Of a stretch of DNA of 64,000 nt, positions 5,850 through 41,200 are shown in pieces. Source of the DNA: Tortispora ganteri (taxonomy: Eukaryota); contig PPNB01000013.1 of assembly GCA_003707115.1 (NCBI GenBank), positions 62,001 through 126,000 of the forward strand, written 5' to 3'. Under the pieces are notes generated by a model. That model worked only from the letters and a program-made list of their open reading frames with translations, was not told the origin of the DNA and did no database searches. Every line of letters begins with the position of its first letter. Positions within the stretch are counted from its first letter, which is position 1. The translations under genes and the position numbers were made by a program.

Positions 5850-6882
5850 TAATGCAGTCTTTCTTCTTTGAGGCCTTATTCTTATGTTTTGGTTTAGATT
5901 TGAGCTCTGCTCGTGCGGGATGCGCTGGATGTGCTGGATGTGCGTGTCTGGATGCGCGATCGTACCGTTGTTGCGTCTGCGATGCGAGGTTACTGTCTTC
6001 TTCGAGCTGGAGTTGTCTGGCGTAGTCCTCGTCACTGAGGTCAGTAGCCGGGATCGGGCAATCGTCATGACTCTCTTCGCACTGGAACTCCTGCGGCAGG
6101 AGCGTGCCTGAGAAGAACGAGTTGTTTTCGCCTTTTATGTCGGAGATAGACTCCCAGACTACATACTTGTGGTTTTTGTAGCCATAGTCGGTGACGAGCA
6201 TGAGGATCTGCTCGGACTGGTATGTTTTGTATATAGTGGAAAAGTGATTGTTGCGGAAGAGTACAGCGAGGGAGCCCGGTTGAAGCAAATTCTGTATAAA
6301 AGAGAGTCCGGCGTCTGTGAATTGGTCGTTTGTGCGAGTGAGGAATTGCTGTATAATTTCGGCGTTGGACTTATGTTCGTTATCTGCAGCCGCATCGGCG
6401 GCGTTTATAACATACTCAGTGGCGGCGTCATAGGATTTTAGCGAAAACAATAAATCACAAGGATCTTCCTGTTCCGGAATCCAGCCATGAATTATGTCTA
6501 TATCAAAGGCGGAGAAAAGATTTAAACTGGGTCCAGGTTCAAAAGTGCCATCGAACCGCGGATTGACATCGAGTCCTGCATAAAGCTTGGGGAGCAGTTC
6601 CAATAAACCATCATCTATACTATAACCATCTGGTGGATTCGATACAAGGGAATCAGCAAGTGTTTCGAGAATATCAGCGAGTTTGACGGTTGCGCGGTTC
6701 TGCATGAGCCGCCACAGATGTTCATGTTTGTGGGTGCGGGCGTCAGAGAGCAATAATGTGTTTACTAGTGCGATTAATGGACATGGTCCATTCTGATCTT
6801 GCAGTAGTATAGGTACATCGACTACCGCATCATTCCTTTCATCTTTGAATACGATCGATTTAACGTAGAAAGTCACAGACAT
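5842..6882 (-). CDS. MINDY-family K48 deubiquitinase (MIY1-like) with MIU motif and C-terminal CaaX
   Basis: Q..NGPCPLIALVN catalytic Cys motif, HGW, FRNNHFSTIY, LVTD.GY, DEDYARQLQLEED (MIU), polybasic tail ending CIIM. Confidence 0.9.
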   Translation of the reverse strand: MSVTFYVKSIVFKDERNDAVVDVPILLQDQNGPCPLIALVNTLLLSDARTHKHEHLWRLMQNRATVKLADILETLADSLVSNPPDGYSIDDGLLELLPKLYAGLDVNPRFDGTFEPGPSLNLFSAFDIDIIHGWIPEQEDPCDLLFSLKSYDAATEYVINAADAAADNEHKSNAEIIQQFLTRTNDQFTDAGLSFIQNLLQPGSLAVLFRNNHFSTIYKTYQSEQILMLVTDYGYKNHKYVVWESISDIKGENNSFFSGTLLPQEFQCEESHDDCPIPATDLSDEDYARQLQLEEDSNLASQTQQRYDRASRHAHPAHPAHPARAELKSKPKHKNKASKKKDCIIM

Positions 6883-32006: not shown

Positions 32007-34067
32007 TTACTCGTAGTTTCCTCTGTTAACGATATTCTGCTGGATCTGCGAAGATTGCTGTTGGTTCACGTTCGGAGAGCCATTCTGCTGGCGGGGTATA
32101 TTCATAGAGTAATTCATGCCCATAGGAGAGTTTACGCTGTTCATATTTATGGGGTTATTTCCCATGTTAGATATGCTGTTGCCCATAGTTGAACTGGTCA
32201 ATGATTGAGCGTACTGTCCGGCTCGCAATTTCGCCTGCATTTCTTCTGACAGTTGCGGGGAAATACGGCTTTGCGCACTTTGCTGCTGTCGCTGTTGTTG
32301 CTGCAAACGCAAAAGCATCTGCTCTTGTGGAGTCATGTTTGCAATTTGCTGCTGCATCTGCTGCATGGAGTGTTGTGTAGGTGTGACCTGCCGTGGTTGT
32401 GCTGATTGTTGTCTTTGTTGTTGTTGTTGCTGTTGCTGTTGCTGTTGTTGCTGTTGTATTTGGAGTTGCATTTGAGGGCTCTGCATATCGTTCATTCGCA
32501 TCTGCTGCATACGCTGCTGAGCAGACACAGATCGGTTTTGGCTTGCGGGCTTTCCGCCAATAGGGATAGCGGGGTTTATAGGCGGCGACTGCATAGATAG
32601 GCCATTTTGTGCCTGTTTTCTGCGTTCCATTTGAGCCTGTTGAAGCGCTCTGGTATGAGCCTGTTGAGCCCTAAGAAGCTGTTGCTGTTGCTGTTGAGGT
32701 GAGAGGCTAGCTGTTTGTTGCAACATTTGAATTTGTTGAGGAGTCAAGTTTCCTTGAGAATTGACAGGAGAGGAACGCGCTTGCGGGGACGAGCGTGCTT
32801 GTGCAGCAAGACGTTCACGGTCCATAAATTGTTGTTGCTGCTGCTGTTGTTGCTGCTGTTGTTGCTGCTGTTGCTGTTGTCGTTGTTGCTGTTGCTGTTG
32901 CTGTTGCTGTCGTTGCTGTTGTTGCTGCTGTTGTCGTTGCTGCTGCGGCGGCTGTTGTTGTTGTTGCTGTTGCTGCTGCTGCTGCTGCTGTTGCTGCTTC
33001 TGTAGTTGCAGCTGAGGCGTTTGCAGCTGCGGCTGCTGTTGTGATTGTTGCTGCTGAGAAGAAACAACACGATTGGCAATGGGTGCAGGAGAGTTAATCA
33101 TTGCAGCCTGAGCTGTGTTCCGCGATACTGGAATCTTTGTTTGTTTTGGCGGGTGAGATTTGCGGAATGCCTCTACAAAATTGAGCAGCCAGAACTGAGA
33201 TGAGCGCGCTGGAGGAGCTTCATCGAGCATAAGCATAGTTTCGAGTTCAGCAGAGTCGTGGTGCGCAATGTCCTGGTAGAGAGGACGATGTAATGGTCCA
33301 GTTTCTGCAGGAACTGGCATATGCTCAGTATGAGGCAAAATATTTAAGAATTGAGGATCGAACAAGTCAATATCTGGCACGGAGCAGTCAACGTTGCGAT
33401 ACATAAGAGTGAGAAACTCTGCCTCCATAGTGAGAGAGATCTGGTCTGTAAAACGAAACCCAGCTGTGTCTGCATAGAAAAACATATCGTGCCATAATGA
33501 CACTGGGAATGGACGGAGTATTGATCTGTACTTTTTAGGTCCTTTAGGTTGCGGTGATGTGTCTGATTGTTTGGAGTCGTTTGCAGGGAAATGATTGTCA
33601 ATTTTAGATTTTACAGTGTCAGCTTTAGTGTGGTCAATGATTTCGAGAATAATGGAGCCCTCGTAAAAGCGCAGACCGCAGTCTCGGAATACTTCGACAG
33701 CAGCAGGTGGGATGAGACCCCTAAGCGTGCACGATAAGAACTCTTTGATTAAAGGGCTATTCTTTGGAATAACGTAATCGCTGTCGCCAAACCGATATTG
33801 TGTTGAATAAATGTGAAATACAAGACTCGGTGCAGCCGAAGAGTATTTACTCAGTAATTCTTCAGCAGTTTCGGCAAATTTGTAGTGTCGAAGTGGCCTA
33901 GTAGGCCTTGAAGGCTTTGATTGCTGCTGTTGTTGTTGATTTGACCCTTTGTGGTCGCTTTTCAGGCGCTTTTTCGACGGCTCATCAGACTCGTCATCAG
34001 AATCTTTTACAATTCGTCGTCGAAGACCTGAATTACTCAGAACGGATGGACTAGAAATACCCGCCAT
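32007..34067 (-). CDS. SPT20: SAGA subunit Spt20 with polyQ C-terminus
   Basis: LL.KY....PSL.FHIY...YRF, FL.....G.IP....EVFRD....FYEG.IILEI.DH, Y..ILRP...SLW.D, then Q-rich tail. Confidence 0.85.
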   Translation of the reverse strand: MAGISSPSVLSNSGLRRRIVKDSDDESDEPSKKRLKSDHKGSNQQQQQQSKPSRPTRPLRHYKFAETAEELLSKYSSAAPSLVFHIYSTQYRFGDSDYVIPKNSPLIKEFLSCTLRGLIPPAAVEVFRDCGLRFYEGSIILEIIDHTKADTVKSKIDNHFPANDSKQSDTSPQPKGPKKYRSILRPFPVSLWHDMFFYADTAGFRFTDQISLTMEAEFLTLMYRNVDCSVPDIDLFDPQFLNILPHTEHMPVPAETGPLHRPLYQDIAHHDSAELETMLMLDEAPPARSSQFWLLNFVEAFRKSHPPKQTKIPVSRNTAQAAMINSPAPIANRVVSSQQQQSQQQPQLQTPQLQLQKQQQQQQQQQQQQQQQPPQQQRQQQQQQQRQQQQQQQQQRQQQQQQQQQQQQQQQQQFMDRERLAAQARSSPQARSSPVNSQGNLTPQQIQMLQQTASLSPQQQQQQLLRAQQAHTRALQQAQMERRKQAQNGLSMQSPPINPAIPIGGKPASQNRSVSAQQRMQQMRMNDMQSPQMQLQIQQQQQQQQQQQQQQRQQSAQPRQVTPTQHSMQQMQQQIANMTPQEQMLLRLQQQQRQQQSAQSRISPQLSEEMQAKLRAGQYAQSLTSSTMGNSISNMGNNPINMNSVNSPMGMNYSMNIPRQQNGSPNVNQQQSSQIQQNIVNRGNYE
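32829..32998 (-). repeat. Mixed CAG/CAA polyglutamine tract in SPT20
   Basis: (TGC/TGT)n on the + strand. A second shorter tract lies at about 32406-32456. Confidence 0.9.
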
Positions 34068-34875
34068 CTAATTATGAAGTATACAAGGATACTAGGTGTG
34101 TGTGTATAATAGGGTCGACGACTGACTTTGACCCTCTTCTTCCCCGATTGTCTATGGCATAGCAACGTACAACAGCTCCTCAATACTGACCCTCTTTCTT
34201 TGATTAATACACGGAAATTGCTTGTCTTTTAATTAGAATAAAAGTCTAATAATTCTGCTTAAATGTTTTGCAACAACTAATGCGTTACTGCGGGATGTGG
34301 TTATACTGCGTGTTAACTGATTGTTAATGCCGAGCTTGTCGACCTACCTCTCGTGATCCCCATCACCTTACTAGAAGATTTCTATTGCTGTCAAAACTTA
34401 ATCATTCTTAAAGGAAAAGTTCCGATTTTCTTTAAAGTCTGTAAATATAACTAAAGTAGCCGAAATCCCGTACAAACGAGCCTTTCTATGCAAACAACCA
34501 CCAATTCCTCGGTGAAAACTTTACTACAATGTTACCCTAACCTTACTTTAAATTATCTGATGGTTCTTTAGAGGCTTGTGCCGTGATCTTTATTCTACAT
34601 ACTTTTCTATAATACATTTGCATAGCAAGCAGCTAGATATTATTTTACTAAATTATGTTATTTTGCCCGATCTGACCTCCAGTTCGTGGTGAAACCTTTC
34701 AGCGGATAAGTTTCCCTACCGAAAAAACTATGATTAAAAATAAGGTGAACCAATAGCAGCGCCTATATGGATAAGGTTAGATCTCTTGCCCGATCTTTCC
34801 CCCATTTTCTTTATAAGCTCATAGCCTATCCCCTCTCCTCCGTTTTTTTCACTAAAGGCGACTTATCGTGCAAAG

Positions 34876-36603
34876 ATGAAGCTAAATATCCTTGCTTTTG
34901 CCGCGGCAATGGCAAATGCTGCACCTATTGGTGAGGAAACATTTTTTAAAGGTGATCCTCGTGACGTCAATACGGCGGCAATCCTTGCCCGCAAACTGAT
35001 CCACTACAATGCCATATCCACTGTTTCAACTATCCAGCAGGAAGGTGAATTCAAGAACTACCCTCTTGGACTCATGGAGTACTATGCTGACTGTTCATTA
35101 AATGGTGAACCTACTTATCTTTTAATCGAAATAAGTTCCGTATACCGCCAATGGGCCGCGGGTTCTCCTATTGCAATGGAAGTACACACTGGTCGTCTTT
35201 CTGGTAGAAAAGGCTTAGAATCACAAGGCCTTGCAGCTGCACCGCGCGTGTCCCTTCAAGGAAATTTCAGCCTTTTAGATACAGATTCTTACTCGGATGA
35301 AGAAATGTTCGCTCTAGAAACCTGCTTTTTACGTCACCACCCTGATGCTGTGGCTTGGCTCCCTGGCAAGTCCATTTCTCACTCTGCGAAATGGGCTAAG
35401 TTCGATGTCGAACGCGTATACTGGATTGGCGGTTTTGGCAACGTCGCTTATATTGGCGATATTGATGTCGAACTATACAAGAATGTTTCTATTGATGTTA
35501 TTCAACATCCGCATGGTCCTCATGGAGAAGAGGTCTTTGGAGCTAACGCAATGCAAGTTCCACTTGAGCCGGAACACGGTGCCGAGTTTAAGAAGTATCA
35601 TCCTGGTATGACTTACCATGACGTTGACGAAGTACATGGTGCTGAATTCCAGAAGAACCATCCTGGAATGAAGTATCACGAGTTCGACGAAGAACACGGT
35701 GCTGAGTTTAAGAAGAACCATCCTGGAATGAAGTACCACGAGTTCAACGAAGAACACGGCGCTGAGTTTAAGAAGAACCATCCTGGAATGAAGTATCACG
35801 AGTTCGACGAAGAACATGGTGCTGAGTTCAAGAAGAACCATCCTGGAATGAAGTATCACGAAGTCGATGAAGAACACGGCGCTGAATTCAAGAAGAACCA
35901 TCCTGGAATGAAATACCACAAATCAGAGGACCAACATGGCGCTGAATTCAAGAAGCATCATCCTGGAATGAAGTATCACAAATCAGAGGACCAACATGGC
36001 GCTGAGTTCAAGAAGCATCATCCTGGAATGAAGTATCATGATTTCGACGAAGAACACGGTGCTGAGTTCAAGAAGAACCATCCTGGAATGAAGTATCACC
36101 AGTTCGACGAAGAACATGGTGCTGAGTTCAAGAAGAACCATCCTGGAATGAAGTATCACGAGTTCGACGAAGAACACGGCGCTGAATTCAAGAAGAACCA
36201 TCCTGGAATGAAGTATCACGAGTTCGACGAAGAACACGGCGCTGAATTCAAGAAGAACCATCCTGGAATGAAATACCACGAAGTCGACGAAGAACATGGT
36301 GCTGAGTTCAAGAAGAACCATCCTGGAATGAAGTATCACGAGTTCGACGAAGAACACGGCGCTGAATTCAAGAAGAACCATCCTGGAATGAAATACCACG
36401 AAGTCGACGAAGAACATGGTGCTGAGTTCAAGAAGAACCATCCTGGAATGAAGTATCATCAAGGAGGACTTGGACACAAGCTCATGAAGATACTCAAAGG
36501 AGAGAAGTGCAACCGTAAAGCTAAGCTTTATCAGGCTGAAGAAAGCGAGAGTATTCTTGCCCCGTTTTACTCTTTTGTGAACGGGCTTGTTGGCTACTTT
36601 TAA
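34876..36603 (+). CDS. Signal-peptide CREG-like (pyridoxamine 5'-phosphate oxidase-like split barrel) protein with 15 x 20-aa His-rich C-terminal repeats
   Basis: Signal peptide; AAILARKL, P.GLMEYYADC...GEPT.L, PRVSL.G, CFLRHHPDA..WLPG, VYWIGGFG..AYIG.I match the fungal CREG-like family; then the repeat array and a short hydrophobic tail. Confidence 0.85.
   Translation: MKLNILAFAAAMANAAPIGEETFFKGDPRDVNTAAILARKLIHYNAISTVSTIQQEGEFKNYPLGLMEYYADCSLNGEPTYLLIEISSVYRQWAAGSPIAMEVHTGRLSGRKGLESQGLAAAPRVSLQGNFSLLDTDSYSDEEMFALETCFLRHHPDAVAWLPGKSISHSAKWAKFDVERVYWIGGFGNVAYIGDIDVELYKNVSIDVIQHPHGPHGEEVFGANAMQVPLEPEHGAEFKKYHPGMTYHDVDEVHGAEFQKNHPGMKYHEFDEEHGAEFKKNHPGMKYHEFNEEHGAEFKKNHPGMKYHEFDEEHGAEFKKNHPGMKYHEVDEEHGAEFKKNHPGMKYHKSEDQHGAEFKKHHPGMKYHKSEDQHGAEFKKHHPGMKYHDFDEEHGAEFKKNHPGMKYHQFDEEHGAEFKKNHPGMKYHEFDEEHGAEFKKNHPGMKYHEFDEEHGAEFKKNHPGMKYHEVDEEHGAEFKKNHPGMKYHEFDEEHGAEFKKNHPGMKYHEVDEEHGAEFKKNHPGMKYHQGGLGHKLMKILKGEKCNRKAKLYQAEESESILAPFYSFVNGLVGYF
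35572..36459 (+). repeat. Coding tandem array, 60-bp unit, about 15 copies (consensus EEHGAEFKKNHPGMKYHEFD)
   Basis: Exact 60-bp periodicity with no indels. 36241-36300 is identical to 36361-36420, and 36121-36180 is identical to 36301-36360. Confidence 0.97.
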
Positions 36604-36690
36604 ATTGTTTACAAGACGCGCGACAATATTTGCGCGACAATATTCAGCAAAATAGTACTACATGGATAACGTACATGCACATATGAGTCA

Positions 36691-36692
<2 letters not shown>

Positions 36693-36727
<35 letters not shown>
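36693..36727. repeat. (AT)17 microsatellite
   Basis: Perfect dinucleotide run between two convergent gene ends. Confidence 0.95.
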
Positions 36728-37755: not shown

Positions 37756-38092
37756 TTAAGCAGTAGTATTGACATTCATGCGACGCTTACCACCAACCAT
37801 GTTGACAGCTGACTGGAAGCGACGGTTGTACAGTACGCGCTTGTAAGCACGTCCTTTAGGCTTCTTGGGCTTCTCTTGTTTGTCGACTTTAGGGGTCTGA
37901 GATTTGACCTTTCCTGCACGAGTAAGCGATCCGTGAACTTTTGCCTAGTCAATGTTAGTATTCTTGTTTCGGCTTTTCCGGTGACAAAAAAAGATATGGA
38001 AATTACTCTCAACGCAAAATACTATTAATACAATGGCATTCATAGCGTTAAATAGCTTCTTTTGCCAATATCTACATGATGTTACTTACCAT
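37756..38092 (-). CDS. RPS30: 40S ribosomal protein S30 (63 aa), spliced: exon 1 38090-38092 (ATG), intron 37945-38089, exon 2 37756-37944
   Basis: Exon 2 translates as [43 protein letters not shown]...; the intron is ATG|GTAAGT...TACTAAC-ATTGAC-TAG|GCA. Not in the ORF track. Confidence 0.96.
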
Positions 38093-38223
38093 TGTGTGTG
38101 ATTATAGATCGCAAGTGTTGCGTGTTGCGTGGATATAGCCCTCTCCTGGTAACCGCAATCCTCGCCGCCGTGACTGCGAAATACCGCTAGGGCTGTGACT
38201 CCCACATAGCAACATTCACTTTT

Positions 38224-38237
38224 TTACCCTTAACCCT
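38224..38237. promoter_or_regulatory. Telobox/Tbf1/HomolE-like element TTACCCTTAACCCT in the RPS30 promoter
   Basis: About 130 bp upstream of the RPS30 ATG. An identical 14-mer occurs in reverse orientation at 58921-58934, and HomolD-like CGTGACTG is at 38169-38176. Confidence 0.5.
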
Positions 38238-41200
38238 TATGTTATGATCCACCAATCTACTGTCAAACCTATTTATGCTTAATGTAACAACTCTCCGTAT
38301 CTTGCTTTTTGACCCCTGGATGGCAGCAAATACACTAGTTTCCATCTATCTATAACTGGACCTAACATTCAATCTCAATTACGGTATCACTACACATAAT
38401 GTCTTTCTTTATGAAAATTGAAAATACCGCTGCAGCGTTAGCATTGCCTTATAACTGATTCAATTCTCACTAACCAGTTTGACGTGGCCACCGCTAGAAC
38501 TCCCTGAATATACAGGCACCTACCATAATCTGATACCTCTCAGCTAAACTACCTTCTTCATAATACGAGTGAAATTGGCACGCTAATTCGCAGGATCTAA
38601 AATGTCCGCATTCCCTTTATACCTTACAAGCTCTAACTTTAGCCGCGTTTTAGGCCACTATTGGGTGTCTGTCAATATAAGATTACTTTACCCGCACAAC
38701 ACTAATAGACTTAACTCCAATCCGCCAACTATTGATCGTCAACGATGATCCGACCTAACCGCTGTCGTTTATCATCTCGAAAGTTTCCGTGGGTATGCTA
38801 ATGAAAATGTCGCAGCATATTTTCCTATTTTATAAAAAGGTTTTACATATAACAATCGGTACTGGTGGTTGAATGCTCTTAAATCTTGTTAGTCTTATCT
38901 CTCTTTTCTAAGATCTACATCTGGAATAAACCGCGCTGTTTAGAACTTCCTCCTACGGTAACTATTATCTGGACCAATACCTAGCTTTCTTCGCTTACTT
39001 CTTCTTTTTCATTTACTTAATTGAACTTTACAGGTAATTGCAGTTTGAATTTCGAAAATTCACTCTCAAACTGTAATGAGGACAAAACTAACTATAATCA
39101 TGTTTATTAGCCCCATCCTGCTTCTATGTTCCGATGTTGCTTCAAGGAGAAGATGTCCAGCGAAACTTTCCCATTTTAAACTCCTACTGAAGCTTGTCGT
39201 TTATCATACAACTAACTTTACAAGCCTTTGATAGCTTCTGCCATGCTTATACTTAAATTAAGCATAAATACAAACGTCATAGTGCTACCCTGCAGAATAA
39301 AGGATTTGCTAACGCATCCAATGCCAAGCAATATAAGGTACGGCCTGCTCCTTTATTATCTTAGTGCAGCTTGATCATACCCTTGGAGAATAACACTTTT
39401 TGAGCGGTTATACCAGTCAAGCTCGTTTTATCACAAAAACTCACCTAATTATGCGGTATTTTTAAGTCGATCGACTTCTTGCTAGTAGGGGTCTGGTTTG
39501 CCGATTAACTTCATTGATGCAACTTGGCAGTTTGATTTGTTGCTGCTAAACTGGTATTACGAATGGCAATACGTCTCATTGGCTATCACTAAAGAATAAC
39601 CCACCACACCACGGTCCGGTGAAACTTTATGGCCGGATCTCAGCTTAAAGAACAAGCTATTAATTTATGATTATCGCTTGAAAATCATAAAAACATAGTT
39701 TGCTGACTGTCTTGCCTAGATAATATTTTATTTAGGTTTATCGGGGGAAGATGATACAATCCGATATCCAGTTATTAGCGTCAACAGTAGTTGGAAGCTA
39801 TATCTATGAGCAAGTGCACGGGCAAACTCACGGTATCTTAGGGACTTGTTCATAAAGTCGAGGATAGGTCGCAATTATATTACTAGTAATTGCTCTGTGT
39901 ACTGTTGAGAACCATACGCATGTCGTTTAGGGGTGGACTCCCGAATGCCGGAAAGCACGTTACACAAAGTAAGCGACTTGCTTACGTGTTAAAGTTTCAT
40001 ATAAAGTGTAACTTTAATATGTAAGATTGTGCATGATGCACTGCTGGTACTGTTTTTAATGATCAGTTTTTTCAGACTATATGCACCTCGCAAGCACCCT
40101 GCATCTCGATTTTACTTATTACGGCACACTCGATCGTTAAAATCATATTGACTGTTGGCTTATCAAATTTTCATAAGATACTGATATAATCATCTTATGA
40201 TTTTTTAGTTAATGCTGGAAGAATTTGAGAGAGATGAATTACTATTAAGGTTGGAGATATTGGTCCTGGTGATGTTTCCTTGGCACATGATGTTTTAAAG
40301 TGCCGATCGCGGTTTAGCGGGTTTGTATCTGTGTAATGCAATATAGATACAAGTACAGCCTAGCATTGGTCGATTTACGCAGCAGACAGAACAAGAAATT
40401 GCGAATTTGGCTCGGTATACGGCAGCCCCAGTCAGGCGGGGATTGCTTGTCGCTCTCCCCTAATTGGCACCTAGCTAATTGATATATTGATCGACGATGA
40501 TCAATTGGCGCTTGAAGCACTGCGACTAAAAACCGTATAACGTTACGATGATTGAGCCAACATCTGAGGTAGAACAAACACCGATCATGTCTTTCTGTCG
40601 TTCGTTGGTTTAAGTGCCGAAGAATTCGGAAGGAAAATCTCGAAGATTGTCATCTGCATTTCGACATCTCTTAGGCCAGTTAATTGGTTGTGGTCAAATA
40701 ACTTTGTTCTACCGGCAATCGCCCACCTTGGAGTTTCCGCCTTCTATCAGTGGGAAATTGGAGATCGGTCGGAGCTCGCTAATGCCTTAACCAATGCGCC
40801 CATACTGTGAAATGAGTTATAATTCAGTATTTTCCATTCATTAAAAATGATACGTGAAAAATGTGGATCTCCGGAAAAGAAGCGGTTCTCTGCGCATTTA
40901 ATATCTTCATATTACAGAAAGTGGGATCGCTATACCCCCACCATGCCATGCATTATATGCCTATATTTGGAATTAAGCTTCCAGATGAAAGGAACTCTCC
41001 TATAAAGTTGCCACTTATTTGCCCGATTCGCAATATTAAGTTTGGATCCTCCGGTTGCTCGTTCCCGTTAGCTCTAAACGTTAATAAGTATCAATTATCC
41101 GCGCATGTGGCTTCTAATTTTAACTCCTTTTATTTTCTCTACTTATATATATCGGATTGTAATACAATTCGCTTTATCCTCAGGTATTCACGTTGTTCAT

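What the first reader, a model, noticed from the sequence alone, without database searches (positions are those of the whole stretch)
34876..36603. CREG/split-barrel domain fused to 15 KK-punctuated His-rich peptide repeats: candidate fused peptide-precursor or metal/haem-binding polymer system
Seen: signal peptide, an approximately 190-aa CREG-like domain, a short linker (HPHGPHG...MQVPLE), 15 in-register 20-aa units (EEHGAEFKKNHPGMKYHEFD; each consensus unit has 3 His, 1 Met, 1 Tyr, and 14 of 15 contain KK), then a hydrophobic tail. Known: the fungal CREG-like proteins I know are short single-domain proteins; animal CREG1 is lysosomal; the split-barrel fold includes HugZ/HutZ haem-utilisation proteins; Kex2-processed repeat proteins (KEPs) and fused enzyme-precursor RiPPs (borosins, BURP-domain precursors) exist. 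Inference, three alternatives: (a) cleavage at KK releases about 14 near-identical peptides (NHPGMKYHEFDEEHGAEF) with His at position 2, or ATCUN-like KNH if cut between the lysines, possibly modified by the fused domain; (b) the intact array is a multivalent Cu/Zn/haem sponge feeding the barrel; (c) it is a pH-switched vacuolar polymer, since net charge per unit is about -2 at neutral pH and about +1 with His protonated. KK is a poorer Kex2 site than KR, so (a) is unproven.
Basis: partly seen in the sequence, partly recalled or inferred. Interest (0 to 1): 0.85.

Follow-up and report, generated by a model that had tools for sequence, protein, structure and literature searches.

The report
Yeast CREG protein with histidine-repeat tail
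A budding yeast close to Tortispora encodes a secreted CREG-type barrel protein whose tail has grown into fifteen nearly identical histidine-rich 20-residue units, an extreme case of an unstudied yeast protein family that probably binds metal ions.

Summary
Window 34876-36603 (+) is one 575-aa ORF: hydrophobic leader, CREG beta-barrel (PF13883, E 1.3e-33), a His/Pro linker, 15 in-register 20-aa units (14 of 15 with KK) and a C-terminal helix.

The organism is a close relative of Tortispora caseinolytica, whose orthologue is annotated as two fragments. This 20-aa unit was found only in Tortispora.

The architecture is not unique. Of 143 non-redundant CREG-domain hits, 34 have tails of 80 aa or more, and 25 of those 34 have at least 5% His. 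They span many budding-yeast lineages, all named hypothetical, and I found no paper on them.

Within the array the core HGAEFKKNHPGMKYH is under strong purifying selection (pN/pS 0.037). KK lies in the middle of that core. Regular dibasic spacing is not shared by the other yeasts' repeats. This argues against a KK-cleaved peptide precursor.

My best reading (about 0.4) is an intact, multivalent, pH-titratable His-based metal-binding array tethered to the barrel. Nothing was tested biochemically. I class it as a new variant of a known kind, of moderate interest.

The parts
34876..36603 (+). Complete coding sequence, 575 aa plus stop codon, with no intron needed
34876..34920 (+). N-terminal hydrophobic leader (residues 1-15, MKLNILAFAAAMANA), read as a signal peptide with Ala at -3 and -1
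   Evidence: Direct reading. AF2 helix 3-13. Leaders are present in homologues. No signal-peptide predictor was run.
34966..35481 (+). CREG split beta-barrel domain (residues 31-202), with sequons at N130 and N203 and family-invariant R124, G129, H155, G185, G186
   Evidence: Pfam PF13883 E 1.3e-33. AF2 pLDDT mostly above 90. Foldseek hits to 1XHN, 6M0A and 5BNC. Invariant columns.
35482..35568 (+). His/Pro-containing linker (residues 203-231, includes HPHGPHGEE). Comparable His/Pro segments directly follow the barrel in Lipomycetales homologues.
   Evidence: pLDDT below 50
35569..36468 (+). Array of 15 in-register 60-bp / 20-aa units. The core HGAEFKKNHPGMKYH is nearly invariant and the junction residues vary. 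Each unit is predicted as a 10-residue helix plus a loop.
36469..36549 (+). Basic post-array segment (residues 532-558, LGHKLMKILKGEKCNRKAKLYQAEESE) with the only Cys of the tail
   Evidence: The T. caseinolytica fragment P0009 matches residues 485-575 at 80% identity, a stretch that includes this segment.
36550..36600 (+). C-terminal helix (residues 559-575, SILAPFYSFVNGLVGYF), the counterpart of a short Ser-then-aromatic/hydrophobic helix motif that ends many family members
   Evidence: AF2 helix 562-574, pLDDT about 57-60. Helix 237-249 in the short homologue P0019, pLDDT about 71. C-termini compared by eye.

Best explanation
The gene encodes a secretory-pathway CREG-family split-barrel protein of a Tortispora-like budding yeast. 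In this family the barrel is followed by a fast-evolving, His-rich, highly charged tail that often ends in a short helix. In Tortispora that tail has been expanded by tandem duplication into about 15 copies of one 20-residue unit. Each unit keeps three His, one Met and one Tyr fixed. I propose that the array works intact, not cut up. It would act as a multivalent string of low-affinity His-based (His/Met/carboxylate) sites that capture or buffer transition-metal ions, with Zn2+ and Cu most likely. This would happen at the cell surface or in an acidic secretory or vacuolar compartment, next to the barrel domain. Because the ligands are His, binding and net charge would switch off as pH falls through about 6.6, so uptake and release would be pH-gated. 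Shown: the anatomy, the family membership, the selection pattern, and the family-wide His and charge enrichment. Inferred: metal binding, localisation, and any hand-over to the barrel.
For: (1) Selection is on the peptide, not only on composition. Among the 15 units the core codons 3-17 have pS 0.506 and pN 0.018 (ratio 0.037), against a ratio of 0.49 at the junction codons. All 45 His positions are kept. The two full units in the T. caseinolytica fragment P0009 keep the same core, varying only at unit position 10.
(2) His-rich tails recur. 34 of 143 non-redundant CREG hits have tails of 80 aa or more. 25 of those 34 have at least 5% His and 15 of 34 at least 8%. Median His is 7.3% in tails against 3.5% in their own barrels. 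In the pooled tails K is enriched 2.2x, H 2.0x and E 1.7x. The repeat sequences themselves differ between lineages, so what recurs is the His and charge composition.
(3) The Kockiozyma repeat unit (P0015) independently combines His, Met, Tyr and acidic residues.
(4) The computed array charge goes from -16 at pH 7.5 to +26 at pH 5.5.
(5) The CREG family is tied to metal homeostasis elsewhere. CREG1 is more than 10-fold up in iron-limited Bigelowiella, and its abundance is anticorrelated with iron in Tara Oceans data (PMC7883536, passages). Diatom pTF.CREG1 is proximal to phytotransferrin (PMC7972479, passages).
(6) The nearest solved folds include haem-binding split barrels.
(7) From recalled general knowledge: His/Met-type sites are typical of extracytoplasmic copper-handling proteins, and His-rich repeats are typical of known Zn- and haem-binding proteins.
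Against: No metal-binding test of any kind was possible. No metal-responsive promoter motif was found with recalled yeast consensus sequences. There is no neighbouring transporter or reductase; the flanking genes are housekeeping. Met is not enriched family-wide (1.17x), so a copper-specific reading rests on a minority of lineages. 9 of the 34 long tails have less than 5% His. Lys, Glu and Gln are enriched about as much as His, which also fits a generic disordered polyampholyte. The pN/pS comparison among units of one array is not made of independent lineages, because block duplication carries synonymous differences along. The AF2 confidence for the array is low (pLDDT 40-70).
Confidence: 0.4

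Rival explanations
1. The tail is a pH-switched or purely physical polymer. It would be a disordered polyampholyte that tethers or spaces the barrel from the C-terminal helix, or sticks to the anionic cell wall when His is protonated, with no specific metal role.
For: Charge reversal near pH 6.6. Low AF2 confidence and a helix-loop beads-on-a-string prediction. Tails differ completely in sequence and length between lineages, and differ in length between Ogataea polymorpha strains (338 against 490 aa). K, E and Q are enriched about as much as H. The tail lies between two conserved elements, the barrel and the C-terminal helix.
Against: A mere spacer would not keep 15 residues of every unit invariant while synonymous sites vary (pN/pS 0.037). 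It would also not keep the same core in the sister species. His enrichment recurs with otherwise unrelated repeat sequences.
Confidence: 0.22
2. The array is a haem-binding array working with a haem-binding or haem-degrading barrel, a haemophore-like protein. His, Tyr and Met of each unit would serve as axial ligands, and the barrel would act like HugZ or HOZ.
For: The top Foldseek hits are haem-bound HOZ1 (6m0a, E 6e-10), MSMEG_6519 and a Populus haem-binding protein, level with human CREG. The family profile hits PA4388, CREG and HOZ1 in the PDB. PF13883 covers both CREG1 and the HugZ-type subfamily (PMC7883536, PMC13715372, passages). His, Met and Tyr are all invariant in the unit.
Against: The DRI/DUF2470 haem-binding domain of HugZ and HOZ proteins is absent here and in 23 of 23 homologues scanned. 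Pfam places the domain in the CREG family. Human and diatom CREG bind no FMN and have no known enzymatic activity (PMC7972479, PMC11602992, passages). Conservation of an axial His was not tested.
Confidence: 0.12
3. The protein is a peptide precursor, a KEP-like protein or a fused enzyme-precursor RiPP. Cleavage at KK by Kex2 or a yapsin would release about 14 peptides of 18-20 residues, possibly modified by the barrel.
For: It formally meets the KEP screen: a signal peptide, internal repeats, and a dibasic pair in 14 of 15 units. KK is listed as a minor KEX2 site (PMC6339444, passages). KK is kept in both units of the T. caseinolytica fragment. There is a weak Pfam resemblance to the TRH precursor (26.3 bits, below the 27.8 cut-off).
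Against: KK lies in the centre of the most constrained stretch, while the variable residues would fall in the middle of the released peptide. KK is inside the predicted helix (low confidence). No X-Ala or X-Pro STE13 signature follows it. The repeats of the Lipomyces, Myxozyma and P0018 homologues lack regular dibasic pairs. A conserved C-terminal helix follows the array. From recall, Kex2 strongly prefers Arg at P1. The KEP survey covered T. caseinolytica and reported 1 KEP. The word HGAEF has 0 occurrences in the two supplementary files held as text. That orthologue is split into two gene models, which could also hide it from the survey.
Confidence: 0.12
4. The array is an assembly artefact or non-functional repeat expansion: the array or its length is not real, or the gene is decaying.
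For: No public contig bridges the array. Units 10 and 13, and units 12 and 14, are identical at the DNA level, so a short-read assembly could misjudge the copy number.
Against: The frame is open through 900 bp with 0% indels. A relative's contigs enter the array from both sides, and that relative also holds array-derived words at raised depth. The T. caseinolytica fragment P0009 carries two full units with the same core. There is strong purifying selection.
Confidence: 0.03

Closest known systems
Animal CREG1 (human CREG, PDB 1XHN)
   Same: Same Pfam family, PF13883. Same split-barrel fold: Foldseek E 1.5e-09, TM 0.77 normalised by the target. The yeast family profile aligns the shared RHP-D/E...W...H...W segment. 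Both have a secretory leader and N-glycosylation sequons.
   Different: CREG1 is a single-domain protein of about 220 aa (PMC11602992, passages). It has no His-rich tail and no C-terminal helix. Sequence identity in the structural alignment is only 17-18%.
Algal CREG1 (diatom pTF.CREG1; Bigelowiella natans CREG1)
   Same: CREG subfamily of PF13883 without DUF2470, with a signal peptide. It is linked to metal (iron) homeostasis (PMC7972479 and PMC7883536, passages).
   Different: It is 234 aa with no repeat array. The iron regulation is shown for algae, not for any yeast. Recombinant pTF.CREG1 showed no flavin reductase activity.
Uncharacterised budding-yeast CREG proteins with long tails (e.g. 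Komagataella phaffii PAS_chr1-1_0441, Ogataea polymorpha OGAPODRAFT_77281, Geotrichum candidum, Lipomyces, Dipodascopsis, Cyberlindnera, Wickerhamomyces, Lachancea nothofagi)
   Same: Leader, CREG barrel and a His-rich charged tail, often with internal repeats and a terminal helix motif. These are true family members at 24-49% identity to the query.
   Different: Their repeat units are unrelated in sequence and far less regular. Best self-identity is 0.53 at period 49 in Ogataea and 0.32 or less elsewhere, against 0.73 at period 20 here. The 20-aa unit itself occurs only in Tortispora.
HugZ / HOZ1 / MSMEG_6519 haem-binding split-barrel proteins
   Same: The fold: these are the top Foldseek hits, 6m0a at E 6e-10. 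There are also profile hits.
   Different: They carry the DRI/DUF2470 haem-binding domain (PMC11602992, passages), which is absent here.
KEX2-processed repeat proteins (KEPs)
   Same: A signal peptide, tandem near-identical units, and a dibasic pair in each unit (PMC6339444, passages).
   Different: There is a large conserved folded domain in front and a conserved helix behind. The dibasic pair is KK and is central to the conserved core. There is no STE13 signature.
Histidine-rich metal- or haem-binding repeat proteins (vertebrate histidine-rich glycoprotein, Plasmodium HRP2, prion octarepeats, the tail of the fungal zincophore Pra1)
   Same: Tandem short units with fixed His in a secreted protein. 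This is a working analogy only, recalled and not tested.
   Different: No sequence relationship was detected. No Pra1/Aspf2-type domain is present, and there is no adjacent zinc transporter gene.

Membership tests
CREG family (Pfam PF13883, CREG subfamily) | Match to the family profile above the curated cut-off | tested here: met
   116.8 bits against a cut-off of 27, E 1.3e-33, residues 31-202, profile positions 3-166 of 167
CREG family (Pfam PF13883, CREG subfamily) | Split beta-barrel fold like 1XHN | tested here: met
   AF2 barrel pLDDT mostly above 90. Foldseek hit to 1xhn_A: E 1.5e-09, TM 0.77 by target, rmsd 3.4.
CREG family (Pfam PF13883, CREG subfamily) | No DUF2470/DRI domain (this separates CREG1 from the HugZ-type subfamily) | tested here: met
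   No such Pfam hit at E up to 1, and none in 23 of 23 homologues scanned
CREG family (Pfam PF13883, CREG subfamily) | Single-domain secreted glycoprotein | tested here: not met
   The leader and 2 sequons are present, but 373 of the 575 residues lie beyond the Pfam domain as a repeat tail. The architecture therefore departs from described CREGs.
CREG family (Pfam PF13883, CREG subfamily) | FMN pocket occluded, with no flavin binding | not tested
   Only the loop 105-122 with lower pLDDT was noted. No pocket analysis was possible.
KEX2-processed repeat proteins (KEPs) | Signal peptide | tested here: met
   Read directly; no predictor was run
KEX2-processed repeat proteins (KEPs) | Internal near-identical repeats | tested here: met
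KEX2-processed repeat proteins (KEPs) | KEX2 sites between the repeated peptides | tested here: inconclusive
   KK is present in 14 of 15 units, and KK is only a minor site (PMC6339444). It lies in the centre of the constrained core rather than at a variable boundary.
KEX2-processed repeat proteins (KEPs) | Actual proteolytic release of peptides | not testable with these tools
   This needs peptidomics or a Western blot
HugZ/HOZ haem-binding split-barrel family | DRI/DUF2470 domain and an axial His | tested here: not met
   The DRI domain is absent. The axial His was not examined.
HMG-box proteins | A genuine three-helix HMG box | tested here: inconclusive
   The whole protein scores 51.3 bits against a cut-off of 25.4, but this is summed over repeats. 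The 300-aa array scores 60.4 bits in 9 stretches. Two 80-aa pieces score 24.3 and 28.7 bits. Several unrelated families (a C2H2 finger half, Ccdc124, TRH, rubredoxin) hit the same units. The protein has a secretory leader. I reject membership and treat the hit as a periodicity artefact.
GPI-anchored fungal wall proteins | C-terminal uncharged hydrophobic GPI signal after a small-residue omega site and a spacer | tested here: not met
   The equivalent terminal segments of the homologues carry Arg, Lys, Asp or Glu (for example in P0012, P0015, P0010, P0011, P0129), so the element is an amphipathic helix. There is no Ser/Thr-rich stalk (S+T is 1.7% of the tail). No GPI predictor was run.
Pra1/Aspf2-type fungal zincophores | Pra1-type metalloprotease-like domain, and a divergently paired zinc transporter gene | tested here: not met
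   No such Pfam domain. The neighbours are Spt20, a DUF1687 protein, CPSF73 and similar.

The most novel reading that the evidence does not exclude
Budding-yeast CREG proteins form an undescribed family of secreted or vacuolar metal- or haem-capturing proteins. In them a fast-evolving His-rich antenna gathers ions and a conserved CREG barrel receives or senses them. The Tortispora 15-unit array is the most developed antenna. If so, genetically tractable yeasts (Komagataella, Ogataea) would give the first handle on the molecular function of the CREG family, which is strongly iron-regulated in marine algae but has no known biochemical activity in any organism.
Probability: 0.25. Interest if true: 0.75.

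Novelty: new variant of a known kind. Interest (0 to 1): 0.5.

Why it matters
CREG is conserved from animals to algae and fungi. It is secreted or lysosomal, and it is among the proteins that respond most strongly to iron limitation in marine phytoplankton. Yet it has no known ligand or activity (PMC7883536, PMC7972479, PMC11602992, passages).

The finding shows that many budding yeasts attach His-rich, charged, often repetitive tails to this barrel. In Tortispora one 20-residue unit has been amplified about 15 times under strong peptide-level constraint. This gives a concrete, testable hypothesis (metal handling) in organisms where knock-outs and protein production are routine.

It also corrects existing annotation. 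The T. caseinolytica orthologue is split into two partial models, and the family is labelled pyridoxamine 5'-phosphate oxidase-domain protein or hypothetical. If the tail proves inert, the finding is just one more low-complexity expansion.

Tried and rejected
- Whole genome: none is held for this window, so paralogues, KEX2 or yapsin genes and metal regulons could not be surveyed.
- Expression: no RNA holder was listed for the locus, so nothing can be said about expression.
- Copy number: contigs of X1 and X2 and of the relative X3 all break in the array and none bridges it. X1 and X2 are the same organism with identical figures, so they may be one data set or the source itself. Short array-derived pieces have raised depth (up to 1375 against about 120 in the flanks of X3), but the tool warns that this is not a copy number.
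- Pfam hits on the repeats: HMG_box, TRH, zf-C2H2_7th_ZNF462, Ccdc124, rubredoxin and PBDC1 were judged periodicity or composition artefacts.
- PDB sequence search: the single-sequence search gave only a 20-residue-period repeat of an IgA1 protease (E 0.0019), an artefact.
- phmmer hits P0016, P0106 and P0117 match the array only through periodic repeats and lack a CREG domain.
- ESM Atlas on the tail: no usable hit.
- Earlier findings of this scan: nothing relevant.
- Promoter scan: recalled consensus motifs for Zap1, Aft1, Mac1, GATA iron repressors, Rim101 and others gave no convincing site.
- Literature: searches found no paper on a fungal CREG-domain protein or on the locus tags searched. 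One search was poorly targeted because CREG was not required. Two apparent leads were false. In PMC5997321 the hit is the surname Cregeen. In PMC10112684 CreG is a primer name for LtCre1, described there with a zinc-finger domain. Supplements are searched only per paper, so mentions in omics tables may exist unseen.
- C-terminal helix: AF2 of a short homologue, run to test whether the helix docks on the barrel, gave only moderate pLDDT of about 71. This is not decisive.
Full report
**1. Observation**

Window 34876..36603 (+) is one uninterrupted ORF of 575 aa. Tandem Repeats Finder reports an array at 35572-36458 with period 60, 14.8 copies, 88% matches, no indels and score 1268.

At protein level the word HGAEF recurs 15 times, always exactly 20 residues apart. 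This gives 15 in-register units from 35569 to 36468. 14 of 15 carry KK, and the consensus is EEHGAEFKKNHPGMKYHEFD.

Pfam places residues 31-202 in CREG_beta-barrel (PF13883, E 1.3e-33, 116.8 bits against a cut-off of 27). The N-terminus (MKLNILAFAAAMANA) reads as a signal peptide. There are two N-glycosylation sequons (N130, N203) and three Cys.

The two antisense ORFs inside the array are by-products of the repeat.

**2. Organism and orthologue**

The closest protein is a partial 193-aa model of Tortispora caseinolytica (P0003, 91-92% identity over the barrel). A separate 91-aa model from the same species (P0009, CANCADRAFT_97688) matches residues 485-575 at 80% identity. It contains two full units with the same core, plus the same basic segment and terminal helix. 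For both models the look-ups list a longest contig of 3,113,199 bases, which suggests one contig. So the orthologue exists in T. caseinolytica but is annotated as two fragments.

Contigs from a related organism (coded X3) run from the promoter into the first unit, and from the last unit out through the 3' end. Between them lie only short, high-depth pieces. Contigs from the window's own organism (X1 and X2, with identical figures) also break in the array. The copy number of 15 is therefore not independently verified. Units 10 and 13, and units 12 and 14, are identical in DNA, so misassembly of the count is possible.

**3. Is the unit found elsewhere?**

phmmer with the whole protein against 1.84 billion representatives gave 312 hits at E up to 0.001. 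The only hit that shares the unit is the T. caseinolytica fragment. Three other hits to the array region (P0016, P0106, P0117) are unrelated periodic proteins. A word-indexed search of the tail against shorter proteins found only P0009, 1 hit among the 8000 candidates scored. The near-length search found only a Dipodascopsis protein, through its barrel (1 hit among 2196 candidates). The 20-aa unit is thus restricted to Tortispora in these collections.

**4. The architecture is not unique**

Among the stored hits I dropped 28 redundant cluster members (P0155-P0182). That left 143 with a CREG domain complete at its C-terminal end, and 34 of these have tails of 80 aa or more. In those 34 tails:
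- 25 have at least 5% His and 15 have at least 8%.
- Median His is 7.3% in the tails against 3.5% in their own barrels.
- Pooled enrichment relative to the barrels is K 2.2x, H 2.0x, Q 1.8x, E 1.7x, P 1.4x and Met only 1.17x.

Named members come from Lipomyces, Myxozyma, Kockiozyma, Dipodascopsis, Geotrichum candidum, Komagataella phaffii (PAS_chr1-1_0441), Ogataea polymorpha, Cyberlindnera fabianii, Wickerhamomyces ciferrii and Lachancea nothofagi. All are labelled hypothetical or pyridoxamine 5'-phosphate oxidase-domain protein.

23 of 23 scanned carry PF13883 above the cut-off. Only one has a second family above its cut-off in the tail (SHOCT in Cyberlindnera).

Many tails hold their own repeats of unrelated sequence. 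The Kockiozyma unit again combines His, Met, Tyr and acidic residues. An unnamed yeast protein (P0034) repeats a KNHP-G/D motif four times. Ogataea strains differ in length, 338 against 490 aa.

The Tortispora tail is the most regular. Its self-identity is 0.73 at period 20, against 0.53 at period 49 in Ogataea and 0.32 or less elsewhere.

By eye, at least 16 of the 65 homologues with 30 residues or more beyond the barrel end in a short Ser-then-aromatic/hydrophobic helix like the one here. Similar segments occur inside some longer tails. I did not test this motif formally. Because the homologous segments carry charged residues, I read the hydrophobic tail as an amphipathic helix and not as a GPI signal.

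**5. Selection**

Across the 15 units every His, Gly, Ala, Glu, Phe, Pro, Met and Tyr of the core HGAEFKKNHPGMKYH is invariant, while their codons vary. Pairwise Nei-Gojobori counts for core codons 3-17 give pS 0.506 and pN 0.018 (ratio 0.037). For the five junction codons they give pS 0.489 and pN 0.241 (ratio 0.49).

The units are not independent lineages, because blocks were duplicated. Even so, the contrast between core and junction, and the identical core in the sister species, show constraint on the peptide itself. The constrained block spans the KK. The variable residues lie 8 to 12 positions away from it.

**6. Structure**

AF2 with an 83-sequence alignment gives a confident barrel (pLDDT mostly above 90). 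Each unit is modelled as a 10-residue helix (unit positions 1-10, which include KK) followed by a loop (HPGMKYHEFD), at pLDDT 40-70. A terminal helix at 562-574 has pLDDT of about 57-60.

Foldseek places the barrel level with haem-bound Arabidopsis HOZ1 (6m0a, E 6e-10), human CREG (1xhn, TM 0.77 by target), PA4388 and MSMEG_6519. The family profile hits the same set in the PDB (7 sequences at E up to 0.001).

In a short homologue (P0019) the terminal helix reaches a pLDDT of about 71. Whether it docks on the barrel is open.

**7. Context**

The neighbouring genes are Spt20, a DUF1687 protein, CPSF73/Ysh1, an eIF2B-like protein, a C2H2 factor, Nup53 and TYW3. There is no transporter, reductase, protease or modifying enzyme, so no cluster supports a RiPP or uptake system. 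Recalled metal-responsive promoter motifs were not found.

**8. Mechanism**

The peptide-precursor idea meets the formal KEP screen of signal peptide, repeats and dibasic sites, with KK listed as a minor KEX2 site (PMC6339444, passages). Several points argue against it:
- KK is placed at the centre of the constrained core.
- No STE13-type dipeptide follows it.
- Several homologues' repeats have no regular dibasic spacing.
- A conserved element follows the array.
- A 190-aa conserved folded domain precedes it.
- From recall, Kex2 strongly prefers Arg at P1.

I put this reading at about 0.12.

The feature that recurs across lineages is His together with charge. This points to a function of the intact tail that depends on His chemistry, meaning metal coordination, pH titration or both. 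The array's computed net charge goes from -16 at pH 7.5 to +26 at pH 5.5.

The CREG family is independently tied to iron homeostasis in algae (PMC7883536 and PMC7972479, passages), and its fold relatives bind haem (PMC11602992 and PMC13715372, passages).

I therefore favour a multivalent, pH-gated metal-binding array beside the barrel (0.4). The rivals are a purely physical pH switch or tether (0.22) and a haem-specific role (0.12). All functional steps are inferred; none is shown.

**9. Novelty and verdict**

The barrel is a clear CREG-family member. The tail kind (His-rich and repetitive) is widespread in yeast databases, but I found no publication on it (searches; supplements not searched globally). 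The specific 15 x 20-aa array is peculiar to Tortispora.

I class it as a new variant of a known kind, with interest 0.5. It is a solid and unusual architecture, and it offers a tractable route to CREG function.

Noticed in passing
window 34663-34673 and 34786-34796: The 11-mer TTGCCCGATCT occurs twice, exactly, 123 bp apart, in the promoter of the CREG gene. These are the only exact copies in the 64-kb window. One 1-mismatch copy lies at 6051-6061; about 1 match at up to 1 mismatch is expected by chance in the whole window. Each copy lies near a GGATAAG-G/T-TT word (34703, 34768). It may be a transcription-factor site.
   Followed up: partly
window 36618-36644 and 36693-36727: Directly after the stop codon, a 14-bp word (GCGCGACAATATTT) is tandemly duplicated. 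An (AT)17 microsatellite follows.
   Followed up: no
window 38030-40860: A stretch of about 2.8 kb has no ORF of 120 aa or more on either strand, only short stop-to-stop frames. It lies between a short ORF at 37756-37944 (-), which reads like ribosomal protein S30 (my reading, not tested), and the next genes.
   Followed up: no
window 32007-34067 (-): The upstream neighbour is an Spt20 homologue (PF12090, E 4.8e-37) with very long poly-Gln tracts, including runs of about 20 Q.
   Followed up: partly
T. caseinolytica proteins P0003 and P0009: The public annotation of T. caseinolytica splits the orthologue into a partial 193-aa barrel model without the leader and a 91-aa C-terminal model. The array between them is not annotated.
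   Followed up: partly
Ogataea polymorpha cluster (P0035, P0157, P0158, P0159): Strain forms of 490 aa and 338 aa fall in one 90% cluster. This suggests repeat copy-number polymorphism in the tail within a species.
   Followed up: no
P0007 (Lipomyces oligophaga), C-terminal ~130 residues: After four clean His/Pro/Asp repeats the model turns into an odd Met/Leu/Thr-rich sequence. This looks like a frame error in the gene model, and it inflates the Met content of that tail.
   Followed up: no
P0063 and P0115 (unnamed or yeast homologues): These members also carry a His/Lys-rich stretch at the N-terminus, directly after the leader, in addition to the His-rich segment after the barrel.
   Followed up: no
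window 35473-35901 (-) and 35983-36459 (-): Two antisense ORFs of 142 and 158 aa lie inside the array. They are repetitive themselves and are most simply by-products of a repeat that lacks stop codons in that frame.
   Followed up: no
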